DNA of 64,000 bases from an uncultured Victivallales bacterium (GTDB taxonomy: Bacteria; Verrucomicrobiota; Lentisphaeria; Victivallales; UBA1829). The notes beneath the pieces were generated by a model that saw nothing but the letters and a program-made list of their open reading frames with translations, was not told where the DNA came from and searched no databases. Where the stretch lies: the NCBI GenBank assembly GCA_944390735.1, contig CALXRL010000031.1, forward strand, positions 8,955 to 72,954, given 5' to 3'. Positions 43,584 to 50,318 of this stretch are shown here, one piece after another. The position numbers and the translations under genes are program-made. The first letter of the stretch is position 1. Each line of letters begins with the position of its first letter.

Positions 43584-45926
43584 TTACCGGTCCGGAAAGA
43601 TCCGTTTCCCCGCCCGTTCCGCCCGGAGGGAGAAGTCCCGTTTCGCAATCGTGAGAAGCAGTTCGCCCTTCCGGTCGGGAACCCGGACGATCCAGGCATC
43701 GCGCGCATCCCGGACCGACGCGCTCTTCCCGACTTCGGACTCCTCCGAGGTCCGGTACGGACGGATCAGGGTGATGAACACCCCGTGTTCCGTTTTTTCC
43801 GGGGAATCGGCGGTCAGATGGTGCTGAACGAGTTTCAGATACGGCATCGGCGGAGGATCGAACCTGTCGGTCTGACTCAGACGAAGTCCGGCGGGATGGA
43901 GAAACTCCACACGGCAGTGGAAATCGCCGTTGTGTACGCGGATATCGCGCTGATCTTTGATCTCCATCCGGTTCAGCGCGTGAAGATGCCAGTTGAAAAT
44001 CGAAGGAGTCTTTGCTTCCAGCGTATCCACGATCAGAATCACGGAGGGTTTCAGAAAAAGAATCTGACGGCGGAAGGAACGGAGGCGTCCCTCATAGGAT
44101 TCCGCGGCCTCGCCGCAGACGTAGTCGGCTTCCCGGGAGGAGGAGAAACCGGTGATTGCGCCTCTTGCCGAACGCGACATCTTTTTCTGCCCGATTCCGT
44201 TGACCGTAATGTTGTTTTCGGATTTGGTCTCCCACATCCAGTTGCGATGAAACTCGCTGGCCCAGTTGTCCCGCTCTCCGGAGCGGATCAGCAGACGCTC
44301 CCCGCCCATGCTCAGAAGAAAACTGTTGTTGGCGTCGTATCCATGACTGGTTGTCCCGTTCGCGGGCGATGACTTGAACTGAATCTGCGTGTTCTCTTTC
44401 GCATCGGTAAGACTGGTATTCAGAATGGCCAGTCCGTTCCCGCGGAACAGACGCGAAAGCGGAAGATCGGTCGGAGCCCTGGACGGAACGGCGGGACGCG
44501 ACGCCCGCAAAAATTCAAGATAACAGACCTCCTTCTGCGCAGGTCCGATCCGTTCGGCATACCACTGGTAATACGGATTGTTGGAAAGCGAGGCAAGACT
44601 TTTCATCGTCAATGCGTGCTGGCGGCGTTCCTTGTGAGCCAGATCCCCGAATCCGCCGCCCCGGGTGAAGGGGGGCATCTGATAGAGAGCGTAATCGCCG
44701 GTTCTGCGGAAAAACGGTTTGCGGGAAATGTCGATCCGGAAGGTGTTTTCCAGAATGTCGCCCCACCAGAAAAAACGGTCGAGATATTCCCGCCAATACC
44801 AGATGCCCTCGTGCCAGCCGCCGTCGTTGTCGCCCCAGACGGGATAGACGCAGAAATAGACGTTCATGGCTCCGTCGATCCAGTCGGCCGCCTCGGGAAT
44901 CTCGCGGTAAAAGACCACGCCCGCCTCCCCGAGAAAGTGCCACAGCCGGTTTTTATGACTGTTGTACGGACGATAGAAATGACTCGGATACAGCATCCGG
45001 TACGCCTCCTGTCCGCGAATGCGGATCACGTTCCGGCACTGTTCGCGTTCCGCTTCCGAAAGCAGATCATGAACAAAACTGTATGTCCGGGAGAAGCGGG
45101 AAAGATACGGCATTCCGGCCTCGTCATTGTAGCGGATGGAGGTGGAGCCGCGGGGATCCCATTTTGCGCATTCAAGCAGAATCTTTTTGGCGGCGTCGCC
45201 GTACCGCCGGTCGCCGGTGATCCGCCACGCATACCCCAGTTCGGCGGCTCCGCCGAGCGTCTTCAGAATGCGCATCCGGTTCCCCCACCAGATCTTCTGC
45301 CACTGACGGGAGGGACTTTTCACGTCCGGTGGATATCGGGGCGGTTCCGAGGTCTCCGGCGGATTCTTCAGCAGAGCTTCGCAGACCGCGGTCATGCGGG
45401 AGGTCTCCTGCTTCAGTTTCCCCTCAGCCAGCCGGCGGAACTCCGGAAGCTGTTCCGGACGGATGAAGATCCGGGGATGTTCCGACGGAATGCGCGAAAG
45501 CAGTTCCCGCTGTTCCGGTTTCGGATTGGAAAGCGCGTCGGATGAAATTTCAAACCGGCGGACGGAGCTCCAGTTCGATTTCCGTCCGTCCTTCCCCGTA
45601 AACCGGACTCGCCAGAACCAGCGTCCCGACTCCATCTCCCGCGAAGGACAATAAACATTCCAGCGGAGTTTGGAAACGGTCTGTGCATTCTGAAAATCGC
45701 CGGTCCGGGCATACTGAAGTTCATAGGAGACTGCGCCTGTCTGATCTTTCCAGACAAAGGGCGCCGGGGTCACTTCGCAGACCTCTCCCGTCGCCGGATG
45801 GAATCCCCATTCATCTTCCCGCGCGGGCCCCTCCGGAAATTTCCTCTGCGCTCCTTCCGCCGCCAGTGTGACAAGGACAAAAAGAATGAAACAAAATTTC
45901 GCTTTCATCAGAAAAGAATCCTCCAT
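43584..45926 (-). CDS. Secreted heparinase II/III-like polysaccharide lyase (DUF4962 + Hepar_II_III domains)
   Basis: Signal peptide MKAKFCFILFVLVTLAAEGA (alternative start 45908). FVWKDQTGAVSYELQYA..WFWRVRF (DUF4962), NSHKNRLWH, GGWHEGIWYW, and HGYDANNSFLLSMGGERLL. Confidence 0.85.
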   Translation of the reverse strand: MEDSFLMKAKFCFILFVLVTLAAEGAQRKFPEGPAREDEWGFHPATGEVCEVTPAPFVWKDQTGAVSYELQYARTGDFQNAQTVSKLRWNVYCPSREMESGRWFWRVRFTGKDGRKSNWSSVRRFEISSDALSNPKPEQRELLSRIPSEHPRIFIRPEQLPEFRRLAEGKLKQETSRMTAVCEALLKNPPETSEPPRYPPDVKSPSRQWQKIWWGNRMRILKTLGGAAELGYAWRITGDRRYGDAAKKILLECAKWDPRGSTSIRYNDEAGMPYLSRFSRTYSFVHDLLSEAEREQCRNVIRIRGQEAYRMLYPSHFYRPYNSHKNRLWHFLGEAGVVFYREIPEAADWIDGAMNVYFCVYPVWGDNDGGWHEGIWYWREYLDRFFWWGDILENTFRIDISRKPFFRRTGDYALYQMPPFTRGGGFGDLAHKERRQHALTMKSLASLSNNPYYQWYAERIGPAQKEVCYLEFLRASRPAVPSRAPTDLPLSRLFRGNGLAILNTSLTDAKENTQIQFKSSPANGTTSHGYDANNSFLLSMGGERLLIRSGERDNWASEFHRNWMWETKSENNITVNGIGQKKMSRSARGAITGFSSSREADYVCGEAAESYEGRLRSFRRQILFLKPSVILIVDTLEAKTPSIFNWHLHALNRMEIKDQRDIRVHNGDFHCRVEFLHPAGLRLSQTDRFDPPPMPYLKLVQHHLTADSPEKTEHGVFITLIRPYRTSEESEVGKSASVRDARDAWIVRVPDRKGELLLTIAKRDFSLRAERAGKRIFPDR

Positions 45927-45929
45927 TCG

Positions 45930-46757
45930 TCAATTGTTCGCAGCCGTGGACCAGAAATAACCGAGAGTCGAATTGTACCAGAAGTTTTCCGGTATGACCG
46001 GATACTTCATCAGAACACTGTGACCGTCGGCGAAGGCGACGTTTGCCCCCATTTTTCCGGAATGCCGCCAGCTTCCGGTCCCGGTGGTCGCGGACATGAC
46101 CATCTGCGCCCGTTCGATCGCTCCGGGATCGGGCGAGTAGGTCTTCCAGATGGAGACATCAAAAAACGCCGCTCTTGCCGAAGGTCGCTTGATCCTGGTG
46201 ATCTTCATCTCCGGCCCTCCCACGGCGGAGGCAAATCCGCTGCGCTTTCCGTCGCTTCCGGCATTGATCCCGTAGTGGATTCTCGAACAGGTGGGGGAAA
46301 ACGGTCCGCTGGACGGACAGGCAAACACTTTCCGTGGCAGATAGAGCTGTGACTCATAGGAACTGCCCGGATTCAGCGCCTTCAGGGAACAGTTGTCGGA
46401 AATCGTTCCTCCTCCGCCCGCTTCCGGAAGAAAGGAGCCCGCAAGCACATCCTGCCACTTCGCCGCATAAGGATTTTCCGCCGTCGGCAGATTCCGGCTG
46501 ACGGCGGGGACCACATCGTTGTTCTGGGAAACATACATTGTCATCATCACTCCGATCTGTTTCAGATTCGATGCACACTGGATCTCCCGCGCTTTCTCCC
46601 GGGCGCTGCTCAGGGCGGGAAGCAGAAGACCGGCAAGAATGGCAATGATTGCAATTACTACCAGAAGTTCAATTAATGTAAAACTTTTCAGCGCGTTTCG
46701 GAATGAAAAAAGGGATATGCCGTTTTTTCGTTTCTGTTTCATTTTCTCCATCCTCAT
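45930..46757 (-). CDS. Pseudopilin-like protein with prepilin-type N-terminal methylation domain (DUF1559 type)
   Basis: [25 protein letters not shown]|[45 protein letters not shown]-terminal VAFADGHS. The upstream 102 aa of the track ORF are rejected. Confidence 0.85.
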
Positions 46758-46791
46758 TATTTGATTGGTTTGCAAACTTCCGCATACGGGT

Positions 46792-47862
46792 TCAAGTTGG
46801 TTTCGACGGCGGCCGGCAGGTGCCCGCATCGACGAATTCATAATTCCGGACGCAGGGTTTCTCCGGTTTTTCCCCCCGGATCTTCCGTAACAGATATTCC
46901 GCCGCCTGCACGGAGAAATCCGCCACATTGATCCGGAAACAGGTGTATTCCCTGACAATTTTGAGCGTTTCCCTGCTGTAAAGTTCAAAATAATCGTCCA
47001 GCACCACCACGGAGAGATCCCCGGGGACGTGGAGTTTGCAGGCTTCGAGTCCGCGGCTGACAAGTGGCTGTGTCAGTCCGCTCCCGAGAATTACCGCATC
47101 GGGCCGTTCCCGCGAAGCAAAATACCGGGGCAGCTGCTCCTCCAGACCGTTGGTCACCACCCATTCCGGATTGACCGGAAGACGCAGTTCCCACATCGTC
47201 TTCAGGAAAAATTCCCGCCGGAACCGATTGGGAATGATGTTGTCGCGATCCAGCAGAAATCCGATCTTCGTATGGCCCAGCGAGGCCAGATACCGGACCG
47301 CATCATGAACCAGCTCCTCGTTGGAGTATCCGAACGAGTAATCGGCAAGCTCCTCCTGAACCGTGCTCAGCAGGAAAAGCGGAACCCCCTTTGCATGAAT
47401 CCTCTGAATCGCCTCCCGGGAGAAATTTCCCTGATTGTAAACGAGCAGACCGTTCAGACGATATTCCGCAATCGCGGATTCCAGCTGGTCAAAGGTTCGG
47501 ATCAGCGGCAGAAGATCACATTCGTTCCGATGACAGAAGGTCCAGAGCTCCCCGAAAATGCGCTTGCTGTAATCATGAGGCTCCGCGACGAATCCGATTC
47601 GCGGACGGCGCAGCGGTTCCGGATTCGCTATGTACGTTCCCGATCCGCGCCTCCGGACTGCGTATCCTTTCGACTCCAGATCGTTCATGACGGCAATCAC
47701 GGTTGCCACGGAAAGACCGGTCTGTTTTGCAAACGCCCTCTCTCCGGGCAGACGTTCCCCGGGCTTCAGCTTGCCCGCGGCAATCTGACTGATCAGCTGA
47801 TCGGCAATCCGGCGGTACTTCGGTCCCTTTCCCGTCTCCGTCTGTAACAGCAGGTGCTCCAT
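46792..47862 (-). CDS. AraR-type chimeric regulator (GntR HTH + LacI-type sensor domain)
   Basis: Start at [70 protein letters not shown], then [31 protein letters not shown]. Confidence 0.8.
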
Positions 47863-47949
47863 GTGTTGTCTTCCTTGTGTTTCGCAGGTATCATTATACT
47901 CCAAAACAAAAAAAATGTCAATAGAATAGATGTAGTTTTTTAGAAAAAT

Positions 47950-47967
47950 AATTACACTGGTGTAATT
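47950..47967. promoter_or_regulatory. Palindromic candidate operator AATTACAC-TG-GTGTAATT
   Basis: Perfect 8-bp arms with a 2-nt spacer in the AT-rich divergent intergenic region. It lies between the AraR-type regulator (start 47862) and the IscU-like gene (start 48138). Confidence 0.4.
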
Positions 47968-48055
47968 TAGAAAACCGGATCCATTCCCGTCCAGAGGGGA
48001 GAGCGGCATGGAATGCGGAAAAAGAAAATTCGATTCCGAAGTTTCGGGGTCCAGC

Positions 48056-48084
48056 TTGTAATTTTGCATTTTTCCGTGTATATT
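48056..48084 (+). promoter_or_regulatory. Putative sigma70 promoter of the IscU-like/GGGtGRT bicistron
   Basis: TTGTAA, 17 nt, TATATT. Located 54 nt upstream of ATG 48138. SD aaggag. Confidence 0.45.
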
Positions 48085-48137
48085 TTCGCGAAGAGGAAAG
48101 GCAACATTCAACCCAACCAAACCCAAGGAGTAGAAAA

Positions 48138-48845
48138 ATGCAATTTACTCATGAAGTCGAGCAGATGTGCTGCGTCGCCAAGGGGCCGAAAAACCCTCCC
48201 GCTCCGATTCCGCAGGAAGGCGGATGGACCCACGTTAAGGAAATCAATCAGATTTCCGGTCTTACCCACGGCGTGGGCTGGTGCGCCCCGCAGCAGGGCG
48301 CCTGTAAGCTGACGCTGAACGTCAAGGACGGCATCATTCAGGAAGCTCTGGTGGAGACCATCGGCTGCTCCGGCATGACACACTCCGCCGCCATGGCCGC
48401 GGAAATTCTTCCGGGCAAAACCATTCTGGAAGCGCTGAACACCGACCTGGTCTGCGATGCGATCAACACGGCCATGCGCGAACTCTTCCTTCAGATCGTC
48501 TACGGTCGCACCCAGACGGCTTTCTCCGAAGGCGGACTGCCCATCGGCGCCGGACTCGAGGACCTCAAACAGCTTCGTTCCATCACCGGAACCATGTACG
48601 GAACCAGTGCAAAGGGCGTCCGGTATCTGGAAATGGCCGAAGGGTATGTCACAGGGCTTGCGCTCGATGAGGAAAACAAGGTCATCGGCTATGAATTCGT
48701 CAATCTCGGCAAGATGATGGAAGCCGTCAATTCCGGCAAGGAAGACGTCCTCAACATGCCGGTCAAGGATTTCGTCAAGAAGTTCCAGAAGACCTACGGA
48801 CGCTTCGCCGACGCTGTGAAAGTCATCAACCCGCGCAAAGCATAA
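48138..48845 (+). CDS. IscU/NifU N-terminal-domain-like Fe-S scaffold homolog with N- and C-terminal extensions
   Basis: 235 aa. Three scaffold-type Cys contexts: GVGWCAPQQGACKLTLNV, ETIGCSGMTHSAAMAAEIL, and DLVCDAINTAMREL. Extra N-terminal CC pair (QMCCVAKG). Confidence 0.7.
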   Translation: MQFTHEVEQMCCVAKGPKNPPAPIPQEGGWTHVKEINQISGLTHGVGWCAPQQGACKLTLNVKDGIIQEALVETIGCSGMTHSAAMAAEILPGKTILEALNTDLVCDAINTAMRELFLQIVYGRTQTAFSEGGLPIGAGLEDLKQLRSITGTMYGTSAKGVRYLEMAEGYVTGLALDEENKVIGYEFVNLGKMMEAVNSGKEDVLNMPVKDFVKKFQKTYGRFADAVKVINPRKA

Positions 48846-48857
48846 GGAGTAGTCATC

Positions 48858-49862
48858 ATGCCATTGTTTGAAAGCTATGAACGCCGGATCAAACAGATCA
48901 ACAAATTTCTGAATGATAACGGAATCGCTTCCATTGAAGAAGCGGAAAAAATCTGCAAGGACAAAGGCCTCGACATCTATCAGCGGGTCAAGGATATTCA
49001 GCCGATCTGCTTTGAAAATGCCTGCTGGGCTTATCTGGTCGGTGCCGCTGTCGCGATCAAGCGCGGTCAGACGGTTGCATCCGAAATCGCCAAGACTCTG
49101 GGTGAAGGGCTTCAGTCCTTCTGCATTCCCGGATCCGTTGCCGATGACCGCAAAGTCGGTATCGGACATGGAAATCTCGCATCCATGCTTCTTCAGGACA
49201 AGACCAAATGCTTTGCGTTCTGTGCCGGTCATGAGTCCTTTGCCGCCGCGGAAGGCGCCATCGGACTGGCAAAATCCGCCAACAAAGCGCGGAAAGAGCC
49301 TCTCCGCGTCATTCTGAACGGCCTCGGCAAGGATGCGGCGGAAATCATCTCCCGCATCAACGGCTTCACCCATGTCGAAACCAAATTCGACTACAAGACC
49401 GGAGAACTCAAGGTCACGAAGGAAAAAGCCTACTCCACCGGTGCCCGTGCCGCGGTTCGCTGCTATGGCGCTGACGATGTCCGCGAAGGCGTCGCCATCA
49501 TGTGGAAAGAGGATGTGGATATTGCCATCACCGGAAACTCCACCAATCCGACTCGTTTCCAGCATCCTGTCATGGGAACCTACAAGAAAGAGCGTATTGA
49601 AGCTGGCAAGCCCTTCTTCTCCGTTGCCTCCGGCGGCGGAACGGGCAGAACTCTTCATCCGGACAACATGGCTGCCGGTCCCGCCTCCTATGGCATGACG
49701 GACACCATGGGAAGAATGCACTCCGATGCTCAGTTCGCCGGGTCCTCTTCCGTTCCCGCCCACGTCGAAATGATGGGATTGATCGGGATGGGCAACAACC
49801 CGATGGTCGGTGCGTCTGTTGACGTCGCCGTCGCTGTCGAACAGGCAATGAAGAAGGCGTAA
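48858..49862 (+). CDS. GGGtGRT family protein (function unknown)
   Basis: 334 aa. Contains the eponymous motif FSVASGGGTGRTLHPDN. Size matches the family (about 330 aa). 12-nt gap after the IscU-like gene. Confidence 0.85.
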   Translation: MPLFESYERRIKQINKFLNDNGIASIEEAEKICKDKGLDIYQRVKDIQPICFENACWAYLVGAAVAIKRGQTVASEIAKTLGEGLQSFCIPGSVADDRKVGIGHGNLASMLLQDKTKCFAFCAGHESFAAAEGAIGLAKSANKARKEPLRVILNGLGKDAAEIISRINGFTHVETKFDYKTGELKVTKEKAYSTGARAAVRCYGADDVREGVAIMWKEDVDIAITGNSTNPTRFQHPVMGTYKKERIEAGKPFFSVASGGGTGRTLHPDNMAAGPASYGMTDTMGRMHSDAQFAGSSSVPAHVEMMGLIGMGNNPMVGASVDVAVAVEQAMKKA

Positions 49863-49893
49863 GACTTCTTTCCCCTGCTTGAAAGCTGAAGAC

Positions 49894-49929
49894 AGAGCCG
49901 TTCCATGAAAACTGGAACGGCTCTTTTTT
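49894..49929 (+). terminator. Rho-independent terminator after the GGGtGRT gene
   Basis: 12-bp stem agagccgttcca/tggaacggctct, 7-nt loop, T5 run. Confidence 0.8.
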
Positions 49930-49941
49930 ATTTGCAGAAAA

Positions 49942-50318
49942 ACTTCCGGTATTTGTCTGCCGGAGGAATCAGAACGGGAAAATGCGGGAGCATTTTTCCC
50001 GGGTCAAGGACGGTGTCCTTGTCGCGGTCCAGCGGCGAGACGCTGGCCGTGCGCAGCACGGAATCTTTTGAACAGTCGTAAAAAAACGAAAAAAATCTTC
50101 CCGCATGGGAAATGAGAGTTTTACTTCCGGTACTTGTCTGCCGGAGGAATCAGAACGGAAAAATGCGGGAGCATTTTTCTCGGGTCAAGGACGATGTACT
50201 TGTCGCGGTCCAGCGGCGAGACGCTGGCCGTGCGCAGCACGGAATCTTGTTTTTCAAGAAGGAATGCGCCTGCGGGAAGATGCGCAGCACGGAATCTTGT
50301 TTTTCAAGAAGGAATGCG
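49942..50318. repeat. Non-coding duplicated element: 126-nt unit x2 (49942-50067, 50123-50248) plus 37-nt sub-repeat x2 (50232-50268, 50282-50318)
   Basis: Direct comparison shows the two 126-nt copies differ at 5 positions. The 37-mer gcgcagcacggaatcttgtttttcaagaaggaatgcg recurs with a 50-nt period. An 11-bp inverted repeat atcttcccgca (50095-50105) / tgcgggaagat (50271-50281) brackets copy 2. Confidence 0.85.

What the first reader, a model, noticed from the sequence alone, without database searches (positions are those of the whole stretch)
47950..49929. Self-contained IscU-like + GGGtGRT bicistron of unknown function, with a perfect palindrome in its control region
A 235-aa protein retains the three Cys contexts of IscU/NifU-N scaffolds, with extra N-terminal (CC pair) and C-terminal extensions. 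It is followed after 12 nt by a 334-aa protein carrying the eponymous SGGGTGRTLHPDN motif of the uncharacterised GGGtGRT family. The pair has its own TTGTAA-17-TATATT promoter and a strong terminator (49894-49929), so it is an isolated two-gene unit. About 90 nt upstream of the divergent AraR-type regulator start lies AATTACAC-TG-GTGTAATT, a perfect 8+8 palindrome that could link the pair to sugar-responsive control. As I recall, the IscU-like/GGGtGRT pairing recurs in anaerobes, but no function is established. The scaffold-like partner suggests an Fe-S- or sulfur-transfer-dependent activity.
Basis: partly seen in the sequence, partly recalled or inferred. Interest (0 to 1): 0.6.

Follow-up and report, generated by a model that had tools for sequence, protein, structure and literature searches.

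The report
Conserved IscU-like/GGGtGRT gene pair
This is a real, self-contained two-gene operon for an IscU-fold cysteine protein and a "GGGtGRT" protein that always occur together and are almost unchanged across many bacterial phyla, yet their function is still unknown and the neighbouring sugar regulator is probably unrelated.

Summary
There are two ORFs (235 aa and 334 aa, 12 nt apart), each with an AAGGAG ribosome-binding site. A TTGTAA-17-TATATT promoter lies upstream, a strong intrinsic terminator downstream, and an 8+8 palindrome sits in the divergent intergenic region.

The pairing is obligate. In 76/76 genome loci and 78/78 metagenome loci with enough DNA, the IscU-like gene lies directly upstream of GGGtGRT. 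No third gene is conserved.

GGGtGRT is 75-91% identical across Lentisphaerota, Desulfobacterota, Acidobacteriota, Bacteroidota, Bacillota, Spirochaetota and Planctomycetota. It has no sequence or Foldseek relative in the PDB.

The small protein has the IscU fold but fails most IscU scaffold hallmarks:
- the canonical first Cys is Gln;
- Asp39, His105 and LPPVK are missing;
- no cysteine desulfurase is linked.

Its conserved cysteines are C49, C77 and C106, plus C56 in most members. The N-terminal CC pair is not conserved.

The AraR-type regulator occurs in 0/160 related loci. The palindrome lies nearer the regulator's own perfect promoter, so sugar control of the pair is not supported.

Published work shows high abundance, strong down-regulation under iron limitation and dispensability in B. 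thetaiotaomicron. My best reading is an obligate heteromeric Fe-S protein, probably an enzyme, of unknown reaction.

The parts
48056..48084 (+). Sigma-70-type promoter of the bicistron, TTGTAA-17-TATATT with TG immediately before the -10. The inferred transcription start is near 48091.
   Evidence: Found by the consensus scan. By my reading, three Lentisphaerota relatives (L001, L002, L037) carry a comparable -35/17-nt/-10 element about 50-90 nt upstream of their start codon, although the rest of the upstream sequence is unrelated. The start site itself is inferred, not shown.
48125..48130 (+). AAGGAG ribosome-binding site of the IscU-like gene, 7 nt before the ATG. It follows an A/C-rich, weakly structured leader.
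   Evidence: Read directly from the sequence. The leader fold is -9.3 kcal/mol, z = -1.0.
48138..48845 (+). Small subunit, 235 aa. It has an IscU-fold core (about residues 40-122), a conserved segment that cannot be modelled (124-168), and a small C-terminal alpha/beta domain (169-230). Cysteines C49, C56, C77 and C106 are invariant in 74 orthologues.
   Evidence: Pfam NifU_N 21.9 bits against a cut-off of 22. hhalign against E. coli IscU gives 88% probability. Foldseek finds ISCU/IscU/SufU at probability 1.0, E = 1.8e-4. Conservation; AF2 model.
48844..48849 (+). AAGGAG ribosome-binding site of the GGGtGRT gene. It overlaps the TAA stop codon of the upstream gene, which suggests translational coupling.
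   Evidence: Read directly from the sequence. In related loci the distance from the end of the NifU-like tblastn match (which stops short of the stop codon) to the GGGtGRT start is mostly 13-55 nt.
48858..49862 (+). Large subunit, 334 aa, a full-length PF14057 GGGtGRT protein. It has a helical N-domain (7-112) and an alpha/beta domain (118-257). A beta-strand/GGGTGRT/helix element is followed by an almost invariant, unmodelled segment (259-299) and then C-terminal helices.
   Evidence: Pfam 628.6 bits. AF2 mean pLDDT 78, pTM 0.80, with residues 259-299 below 50. 46% of columns are invariant across 81 sequences from many phyla, with a run of 23 invariant residues ending at 307.
49894..49933 (+). 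Intrinsic terminator of the bicistron: a 12-bp stem, a 7-nt loop and a T-run.
   Evidence: Terminator scan. RNA fold -25.5 kcal/mol, z = -4.98, matched or beaten by 0 of 200 shuffles.
47950..47967 (.). 8+8 palindrome AATTACAC-TG-GTGTAATT. It is most likely an operator for the leftward regulator operon, if it is functional at all, and probably not part of the IscU-like/GGGtGRT unit.
   Evidence: Unique in the window. Chance of about 0.04 in the intergenic region. In 7 same-species contigs the arms are constant and the centre varies TG/CG/CA. Absent upstream of the pair in relatives.
47893..47921 (-). Perfect TTGACA-17-TATAAT promoter of the divergent regulator gene. This is a neighbouring feature, not part of the unit.
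   Evidence: Consensus scan, 12 of 12 positions.
46792..47862 (-). AraR-type regulator (GntR HTH plus Peripla_BP_3), 356 aa. It heads a leftward gene row with a DUF1559/prepilin-like gene and a DUF4962/heparinase II/III-like gene. It is a neighbour, not a conserved partner.
   Evidence: Pfam. The same gene order occurs in same-species contigs. There is no homologue in 160 related loci.

Best explanation
The two genes encode the two subunits of one obligate heteromeric iron-sulfur protein. It is made as a stoichiometric pair from a single, strongly translated and self-terminated transcript.

The small subunit uses the IscU fold but is not a transient assembly scaffold. It has lost Asp39, His105 and the LPPVK chaperone motif, and no cysteine desulfurase is linked to it. 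It offers Cys49, Cys77 and Cys106, plus Cys56 in nearly all members, in the same pocket where IscU binds its cluster. I therefore infer a permanently bound cluster ligated only by cysteines.

The large GGGtGRT subunit has a helical domain and a Rossmann-like alpha/beta domain. Its beta-strand/GGGTGRT/helix element looks like a phosphate- or anion-binding loop. The roughly 40 invariant residues that follow it (259-299) cannot be modelled for the isolated chain, and nor can the conserved 124-168 segment of the small subunit. I infer that these two segments fold against each other and close over the cluster to form a shared active site.

I take the complex to be an abundant, iron-costly and conditionally dispensable enzyme of anaerobic central metabolism. 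It probably acts on a phosphorylated or nucleotide-type ligand. Its expression follows iron supply rather than the adjacent sugar regulator.

Shown: the gene structure, the obligate pairing, the extreme conservation, the IscU fold with altered ligands, and the absence of any known relative for GGGtGRT.

Inferred: cluster binding, complex formation, the ligand type, and enzymatic rather than carrier function.
For: - Pairing: 76/76 genome loci with enough upstream DNA have the IscU-like gene directly upstream on the same strand. The reciprocal search from the IscU-like protein gives 78/78. A Vibrio orthologue at only 64% identity is also paired.
- No third conserved gene: the most frequent neighbour cluster occurs in 9/160 loci and is lineage-specific.
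- Conservation: 75-91% identity across at least seven phyla. 46% of GGGtGRT columns are invariant. At 50% clustering the family collapses to essentially one full-length cluster.
- IscU fold: Foldseek probability 1.0; hhalign 88%.
- Altered ligand set: C37 becomes Q53 and D39 becomes A55. LPPVK and His105 are absent. C49, C56, C77 and C106 are invariant in 74 sequences.
- The most conserved segments are the least well modelled: GGGtGRT 259-299 has pLDDT 24-36 with block invariance of 0.6-1.0, and the small subunit's 124-168 is below 50.
- Iron dependence: B. thetaiotaomicron BT0173-74 falls 11-12.8-fold under iron depletion (PMC10434189). The C. pasteurianum GGGtGRT protein is 7.1-fold higher with excess iron (PMC5395762).
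- Abundance in vivo: PMC11204068 and PMC7035244.
- Dispensability and a mild glucose-signalling phenotype of BT0173-4::Tn: bioRxiv 10.64898/2026.04.10.717545.
- Expression signals in the window: both genes have AAGGAG sites, the terminator is strong, and the effective number of codons (ENC) is 38.7 for the pair, towards the low end of the 35.5-52.8 range of the window's ORFs.
Against: - No metal, cluster or complex has been demonstrated for any member.
- Cys56 is Ala in the Vibrio orthologue, so the four-Cys site is not universal.
- One divergent GGGtGRT homologue (P0269, 54% identity) lacks Cys89 and Cys118.
- The idea that the GGGTGRT loop binds phosphate rests only on its position after a strand and its composition. 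hhalign against MogA and DnaK gave nothing, and Foldseek found no confident fold relative.
- Low pLDDT may partly reflect the very shallow alignment (Neff about 1.4-1.6) rather than folding on binding.
- The B. thetaiotaomicron phenotype is only 2-fold and could be indirect.
Confidence: 0.5

Rival explanations
1. The pair is a dedicated Fe-S cluster assembly or delivery module. The IscU-like protein would be a true, transient scaffold or carrier. GGGtGRT would be its nucleotide-dependent partner, loading or unloading clusters for the very abundant Fe-S enzymes of anaerobes.
For: The small subunit has the IscU fold with three universally conserved cysteines in the cluster pocket. A glycine-rich loop in the partner could bind a nucleotide. 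Public annotation already calls the small protein an 'iron-sulfur cluster assembly scaffold protein'.
Against: No cysteine desulfurase, chaperone or A-type carrier is a conserved neighbour in 160 loci. LPPVK, Asp39 and His105 are missing. NCBIfam IscU/NifU/SufU equivalog scores are 19-27 bits against cut-offs of 92-192. The pair is strongly down-regulated, not induced, under iron limitation. B. thetaiotaomicron transposon mutants grow normally on glucose minimal medium.
Confidence: 0.2
2. The pair is an iron/sulfur buffer or a stress-protection protein. It would be an abundant reservoir or repair factor for oxidatively damaged clusters in anaerobes, expressed when iron is plentiful.
For: It is very abundant in gut and rumen metaproteomes and was detected alongside rubrerythrins. 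Expression tracks iron availability in two phyla. It is dispensable in vitro.
Against: 46% invariant columns and runs of more than 20 invariant residues across phyla are far more constraint than storage proteins usually show. It has no ferritin-, rubrerythrin- or RIC-like domain. The strict 1:1 two-gene architecture suggests a defined catalytic complex.
Confidence: 0.12
3. The pair would be placed under sugar-responsive control by the divergent AraR-type regulator acting at the AATTACAC-TG-GTGTAATT palindrome.
For: The regulator and the pair are divergent neighbours that share a 275-nt intergenic region. The palindrome is unique in the window and nominally unlikely, at about 4%. BT0173-4 insertions mildly affect a glucose-dependent regulatory read-out in B. 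thetaiotaomicron.
Against: No regulator homologue occurs in 160 related loci. The palindrome is absent upstream of the pair in the four Lentisphaerota loci inspected. Its centre is at about -72 from the regulator's own inferred start but about -132 from the pair's inferred start. The regulator sits at the head of a same-strand row with a DUF1559 gene and a heparinase-like gene, which are the more natural targets. Across the window, 8+8 palindromes number 13 against 7.7 expected, a weak enrichment.
Confidence: 0.08

Closest known systems
IscU / NifU N-terminal domain / SufU Fe-S scaffold proteins (Pfam PF01592; PDB e.g. 3lvl, 2z7e, 5wlw, 6jzv)
   Same: Both have the same fold (Foldseek probability 1.0). 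The central beta-sheet plus 'GC[GS]' helix segment is detectably homologous (hhalign 88%, 39% identity over 51 residues). By my reading of the AF2 secondary structure, cysteines sit at the strand-loop, at the N-terminus of helix 2 and at the N-terminus of the last helix, as in IscU.
   Different: The canonical Cys37 is Gln, with replacement cysteines at -4 and +3. Asp39 becomes Ala, His105 becomes Val, and LPPVK is deleted. About 110 extra C-terminal residues and about 30 extra N-terminal residues are present. Scores fall below the Pfam and NCBIfam cut-offs. It is never linked to a cysteine desulfurase and is always linked to GGGtGRT.
GGGtGRT protein family (Pfam PF14057), e.g. B. thetaiotaomicron BT0173 with its NifU homologue BT0174
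   Same: The window protein is a full-length, typical member (628.6 bits). It has the same two-gene arrangement that is reported, though not analysed, for BT0173-4.
   Different: Nothing material. This is a Lentisphaerota (Victivallales-like) copy, 98% identical to proteins in public MAGs. The family itself has no assigned function, structure or fold relative.
Rossmann-like nucleotide- or phosphate-binding domains (universal stress protein / HUP class, dehydrogenase N-domains)
   Same: The central alpha/beta part of the AF2 model gives weak Foldseek matches to USP domains (TM 0.44-0.51 on the target) and to GAPDH/E4PDH N-domains. A glycine-rich loop follows a beta-strand, as in such phosphate-binding sites.
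   Different: No match reaches E <= 1e-3, and the TM-score on the query is at most 0.27. There is no sequence similarity. The resemblance is a lead only.

Membership tests
IscU/NifU_N scaffold family | Score above the curated family thresholds (Pfam PF01592; NCBIfam IscU, NifU_clost, SufU) | tested here: not met
   Pfam gives 21.9 bits against a cut-off of 22. NCBIfam gives 19.2-26.7 bits against cut-offs of 92.5-192.4.
IscU/NifU_N scaffold family | IscU three-dimensional fold | tested here: met
   Foldseek of the AF2 model matches ISCU/IscU/SufU chains at probability 1.0, best E = 1.8e-4. The model core has pLDDT of about 70-84.
IscU/NifU_N scaffold family | Three canonical ligand cysteines in their contexts (GAPAC-GD, GCG, LPPVK-HC) | tested here: not met
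   Only the GC[GS] context is retained (Cys77). Cys37 aligns to Gln53 and Asp39 to Ala55. LPPVK and His are absent. Alternative cysteines C49, C56 and C106 are invariant in 74 orthologues.
IscU/NifU_N scaffold family | Genomic linkage to a cysteine desulfurase (IscS/NifS/SufS) and/or HscAB chaperones | tested here: not met
   No such conserved neighbour occurs in 160 loci. The most frequent neighbour cluster is in 9/160 loci and is unrelated.
IscU/NifU_N scaffold family | Binds a labile [2Fe-2S]/[4Fe-4S] cluster and transfers it to apo-proteins | not testable with these tools
   This needs anaerobic purification, UV-vis/EPR spectroscopy and cluster-transfer assays.
GGGtGRT (PF14057) | Full-length match to the family model above the gathering score | tested here: met
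   628.6 bits against a cut-off of 27, covering model positions 1-327 of 327.
GGGtGRT (PF14057) | Conserved GGGTGRT motif | tested here: met
   S258-GGGTGRT-L266 is present. The block is invariant in 81 orthologues.
AraR-type (GntR HTH + LacI-like sensor) regulon member | A cognate regulator and operator conserved next to the target genes in related genomes | tested here: not met
   The regulator is found in 0/160 loci. The palindrome is not found upstream of the pair in relatives.
AraR-type (GntR HTH + LacI-like sensor) regulon member | The regulator binds the palindrome at 47950-47967 | not testable with these tools
   This needs EMSA or footprinting. Position alone favours the regulator's own promoter.

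The most novel reading that the evidence does not exclude
The IscU-like/GGGtGRT pair is a previously unrecognised kind of two-subunit metalloenzyme. In it an IscU-fold protein has been recruited as a permanent cluster-bearing subunit, and a fold with no solved relative supplies the substrate site. It would carry out an unassigned, iron-costly reaction common to fermentative and syntrophic anaerobes. That would make it one of the most conserved and abundant bacterial proteins still lacking a function.
Probability: 0.4. Interest if true: 0.85.

Novelty: new member of a known kind. Interest (0 to 1): 0.55.

Why it matters
The window copy is an ordinary member of a catalogued family, but the family deserves attention. 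Its sequence is 75-91% identical between phyla. It ranks among the abundant proteins of gut and rumen anaerobes, responds strongly to iron, and has no known function, structure or fold relative.

Three results here turn a vague 'NifU + hypothetical' annotation into a testable target:
- the pairing is obligate;
- the IscU-like partner is not a canonical scaffold;
- the most conserved segments of both proteins are the ones that cannot fold alone.

The test is to co-express and purify the two proteins anaerobically, look for a cluster, and solve the complex.

The work also removes a misleading lead, namely sugar control by the neighbouring regulator.

Tried and rejected
1. Known RNA elements in the leader or operon. 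Rfam found nothing at gathering thresholds across the window and only noise at E <= 5 locally.
2. PDB sequence relatives of GGGtGRT. phmmer gave only a chance hit at E = 1.3, and the profile search gave none.
4. Remote Pfam hits for the separate domains at E <= 10: none meaningful.
5. Motif-based ideas. I considered a MogA/MoCF 'GGTG' loop and an ASKHA/Hsp70 'adenosine' motif. hhalign against E. coli MogA and DnaK gave probabilities of 0.1-0.2%, so I rejected these as unsupported.
6. Natural fusions of the two proteins, which would have proved physical association. The long 'homologues' (P0241, P0250, P0279, P0294) are assembly chimeras or duplications, and P0336 is frameshift-ridden. No fusion was found.
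7. Guilt by association from neighbours: no conserved third gene.
8. Mobile-element carriage as an explanation for the cross-phylum identity. The plasmid hits are large non-mobilizable replicons, and the phage hits are unannotated faecal contigs. This gives no support for a mobile element.
9. An 11-nt perfect inverted repeat (48064-48074 / 48133-48143) as a start-codon-sequestering hairpin. Its 5' arm lies inside the promoter spacer, upstream of the inferred transcription start, so I did not pursue it.
Full report
**1. What is in the sequence**

The region holds two same-strand ORFs. The first is 48138-48845 (235 aa) and the second is 48858-49862 (334 aa), with a 12-nt gap between them.

Each ORF is preceded by AAGGAG. 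The second site overlaps the TAA stop codon of the first gene.

A sigma-70-like TTGTAA-17-TATATT element lies at 48056-48084. A 12-bp stem-loop with a T-run lies at 49894-49933 and folds at -25.5 kcal/mol, z = -5.0.

The second protein is a full-length PF14057 GGGtGRT protein at 628.6 bits. The first matches NifU_N over residues 55-113 at 21.9 bits, just under the cut-off of 22.

On the other strand, a 356-aa regulator (GntR HTH plus Peripla_BP_3) starts at 47862. It sits behind a perfect TTGACA-17-TATAAT promoter at 47921-47893.

The palindrome AATTACAC-TG-GTGTAATT is at 47950-47967.

**2. Organism and context**

The closest proteins come from Lentisphaeria and Victivallaceae MAGs. Six public contigs of the same species carry the identical gene order: a heparinase-like gene, a DUF1559 gene, the regulator, then the divergent pair, then a convergent uxuA.

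**3. The pairing is obligate and nothing else is conserved**

The best 80 loci span Lentisphaerota, Desulfobacterota (Smithella, Syntrophobacter), Acidobacteriota, Myxococcota, Bacteroidota, Clostridia, Bacilli/Erysipelotrichia, Spirochaetota and Planctomycetota, at 75-91% identity.

In all 76 loci with enough upstream DNA, a full-length orthologue of the 235-aa protein (62-87% identity) lies immediately upstream on the same strand. The other four loci are cut off by contig ends.

The reverse search used the small protein against metagenome contigs. GGGtGRT lay directly downstream in 78/78 loci with room. The distance from the end of the NifU-like match to the GGGtGRT start was mostly 13-55 nt.

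A more divergent Vibrio orthologue (64% identity) is also paired.

Clustering all flanking ORFs shows no conserved third gene. The commonest neighbour cluster occurs in 9/160 loci and is lineage-specific. The unit is therefore a self-contained bicistron that moves between unrelated genomic contexts.

**4. Degree of conservation**

Across 81 orthologues, 46% of GGGtGRT columns are invariant and 65% are at least 90% conserved. Residues 254-316 are almost entirely invariant, with a run of 23 invariant residues ending at 307.

In a library clustered at 50% identity, the family reduces to essentially one full-length cluster plus fragments. The only real outlier is P0269 at 54% identity. P0336 and the long 'homologues' are frameshifted or chimeric assemblies.

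Identity does not follow taxonomy. The window protein is 84% identical to Smithellaceae proteins but 80% identical to Victivallis. This fits saturation of the few free sites, exchange between lineages, or both.

**5. The small subunit: IscU fold, not an IscU scaffold**

Foldseek of the AF2 model hits ISCU, IscU and SufU chains at probability 1.0. hhalign against E. coli IscU gives 88% probability over residues 50-100.

That alignment puts canonical Cys37 opposite Gln53 and Asp39 opposite Ala55. Only Cys63 is matched, by Cys77.

The LPPVK-His105-Cys106 region is replaced by a shorter 'NTDLVCDAIN'. Cys106 still sits at the start of the last core helix.

C49, C56, C77 and C106 are invariant in 74 orthologues. 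The N-terminal CC pair is not conserved, with C11 in 55/74 and C12 in 29/74. In Vibrio, C56 is Ala, so the universal set is C49, C77 and C106.

NCBIfam IscU/NifU/SufU equivalog scores fall far below their cut-offs.

The protein also carries a conserved segment (124-168) that AF2 cannot place, and a small C-terminal alpha/beta domain.

**6. The large subunit**

The AF2 model has mean pLDDT 78 and pTM 0.80. It shows a helical N-domain (7-112) and an alpha/beta domain (118-257).

Strand 254-257 is followed by the GGGTGRT loop and a short helix. Residues 259-299 have pLDDT 24-36 although they are the most conserved part of the protein.

I found no relative of this protein by any route:
- no PDB sequence relative, by phmmer or by profile;
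- no Foldseek match at E <= 1e-3, with TM <= 0.27;
- no remote Pfam hit.

Invariant Cys89, Cys118 (80/81) and Cys202 could serve metal or substrate chemistry, as could many invariant His, Asp and Glu residues (H104, H125, E126, H236, H267, D269, H288, D290, H302, E304). Cys89 and Cys118 are lost in P0269.

**7. What is published**

The library holds 13 papers that mention GGGtGRT, and none assigns a function. A 2025 paper states that its role 'remains unclear'.

The informative data are as follows.
- B. thetaiotaomicron BT0173-74 (GGGtGRT plus NifU) falls 11-12.8-fold under iron depletion (PMC10434189).
- The C. pasteurianum protein is 7.1-fold higher with excess iron (PMC5395762).
- In the rumen it co-varies with NifU and central carbon enzymes (PMC7035244).
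- BT0173-4 transposon mutants grow normally on glucose. They show a 2-fold de-repression of a Cur-dependent reporter in a screen that also recovered pfkA (bioRxiv 10.64898/2026.04.10.717545).

**8. Mechanistic reading**

Several facts point to a heteromeric complex with a shared site:
- the co-occurrence is strict;
- the gene order is fixed;
- the second ribosome-binding site overlaps the first gene's stop codon;
- both proteins carry highly conserved segments that do not fold alone.

The IscU pocket has only cysteine ligands and lacks the residues that make IscU clusters labile and chaperone-transferable. This suggests a permanent Fe-S centre.

Down-regulation under iron limitation and dispensability argue against a housekeeping assembly scaffold. 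They fit an iron-costly, conditionally useful enzyme. The extreme sequence constraint argues against a mere store.

I therefore favour an Fe-S enzyme with a phosphate- or nucleotide-type ligand site on the GGGtGRT subunit. The reaction is unknown. Cluster binding, complex formation and ligand type are all inferences.

**9. The palindrome and the regulator**

The palindrome is real and unique in the window. It is mildly unlikely by chance, at about 4% for the intergenic region. Across the window there are 13 such palindromes against 7.7 expected.

Its centre is about 72 nt upstream of the regulator's inferred transcription start and about 132 nt upstream of the pair's.

No homologue of the regulator occurs in any of 160 related loci. 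The four Lentisphaerota loci I inspected (L001, L002, L007, L037) have unrelated upstream sequence, and three of them (L001, L002, L037) share only the promoter geometry.

Among seven same-species contigs the arms are constant and the centre reads TG, CG or CA. These are C-to-T changes at a CCGG site, as is another polymorphism nearby. They may reflect a mutational hot spot rather than selection.

The simplest reading is that the palindrome, if functional, serves the regulator's own leftward operon of regulator, DUF1559 gene and heparinase-like gene. The adjacency to the pair is then incidental.

**10. Verdict**

The regulatory interpretation is not supported. The 'scaffold' label needs to be changed to 'IscU-fold subunit with an altered, all-cysteine site'.

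The window copy is an ordinary member of a catalogued but uncharacterised family pair. The family is a strong candidate for experimental work.

Noticed in passing
window 49942-50318: The spacer between the GGGtGRT terminator and the convergent uxuA contains direct repeats. A 126-nt unit occurs twice (96% identical, 181 nt apart) and a 38-nt unit occurs twice (100% identical, 50 nt apart), each carrying the small hairpin CCGTGCGCAGCACGG. The spacer length differs between same-species contigs: 408-410 nt in L081, L083 and L085, 636 nt in L082, L084 and L086, and 587 nt in the window. This suggests repeat copy-number variation.
   Followed up: partly
window 47958-47959 and 47993; L081-L086 aligned in A3: Several of the few polymorphisms in the 291-nt intergenic alignment are CCGG to CTGG or CCAG changes, including the centre of the palindrome. 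Most strains read AATTACACCGGTGTAATT, a perfect 18-nt palindrome. The pattern resembles deamination at 5-methylcytosine in CCGG sites.
   Followed up: no
window 48064-48074 and 48133-48143: An 11-nt perfect inverted repeat (TTGCATTTTTC / GAAAAATGCAA) pairs the promoter spacer with the start-codon region of the IscU-like gene. The 5' arm lies upstream of the inferred transcription start, so an RNA role is doubtful.
   Followed up: partly
window 48108-49763 (- strand): A 551-aa antisense ORF runs opposite both genes. It has no support as a gene and is most likely a by-product of the codon bias of the sense genes. A longest-ORF caller picks it instead of the real genes.
   Followed up: partly
L169 6254-6973 (Vibrio sp. 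THAF191d, 1.85-Mb replicon): A facultative gammaproteobacterium carries a divergent copy of the pair (GGGtGRT 64% identical). Its IscU-like protein has Ala in place of Cys56. The pair sits next to what look, by eye, like phenylalanine hydroxylase and pterin dehydratase genes (not checked against any family library). The family is therefore not confined to strict anaerobes.
   Followed up: partly
L021, L026, L028, L030, L052 (downstream of the pair); L164 5574-5993 and three other loci: A C_GCAxxG_C_C-type cysteine-rich protein (identified by eye from its motifs) follows the pair in five Bacteroidota loci in the genome-only clustering and in four in the 160-locus clustering. A protein that looks like a DtxR/MntR-type metal regulator neighbours the pair in 4 of 160 loci. 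These are possible lineage-specific hints of redox or metal context.
   Followed up: no
window 43584-47862 (- strand): The AraR-type regulator is followed on the same strand by a DUF1559/N-methyl prepilin-like protein and a DUF4962 plus heparinase II/III-like protein. This looks like a glycosaminoglycan or polysaccharide utilisation row and a plausible true target of the regulator.
   Followed up: partly
P0241, P0250, P0279, P0294, P0336: Public 'GGGtGRT' proteins of unusual length or divergence are assembly artefacts: an internal duplication, chimeras with ABC ATPase, SusD-like or Tex-like N-termini (my reading of the sequences, not checked), and a frameshift-ridden copy. They inflate the apparent diversity of the family.
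   Followed up: yes
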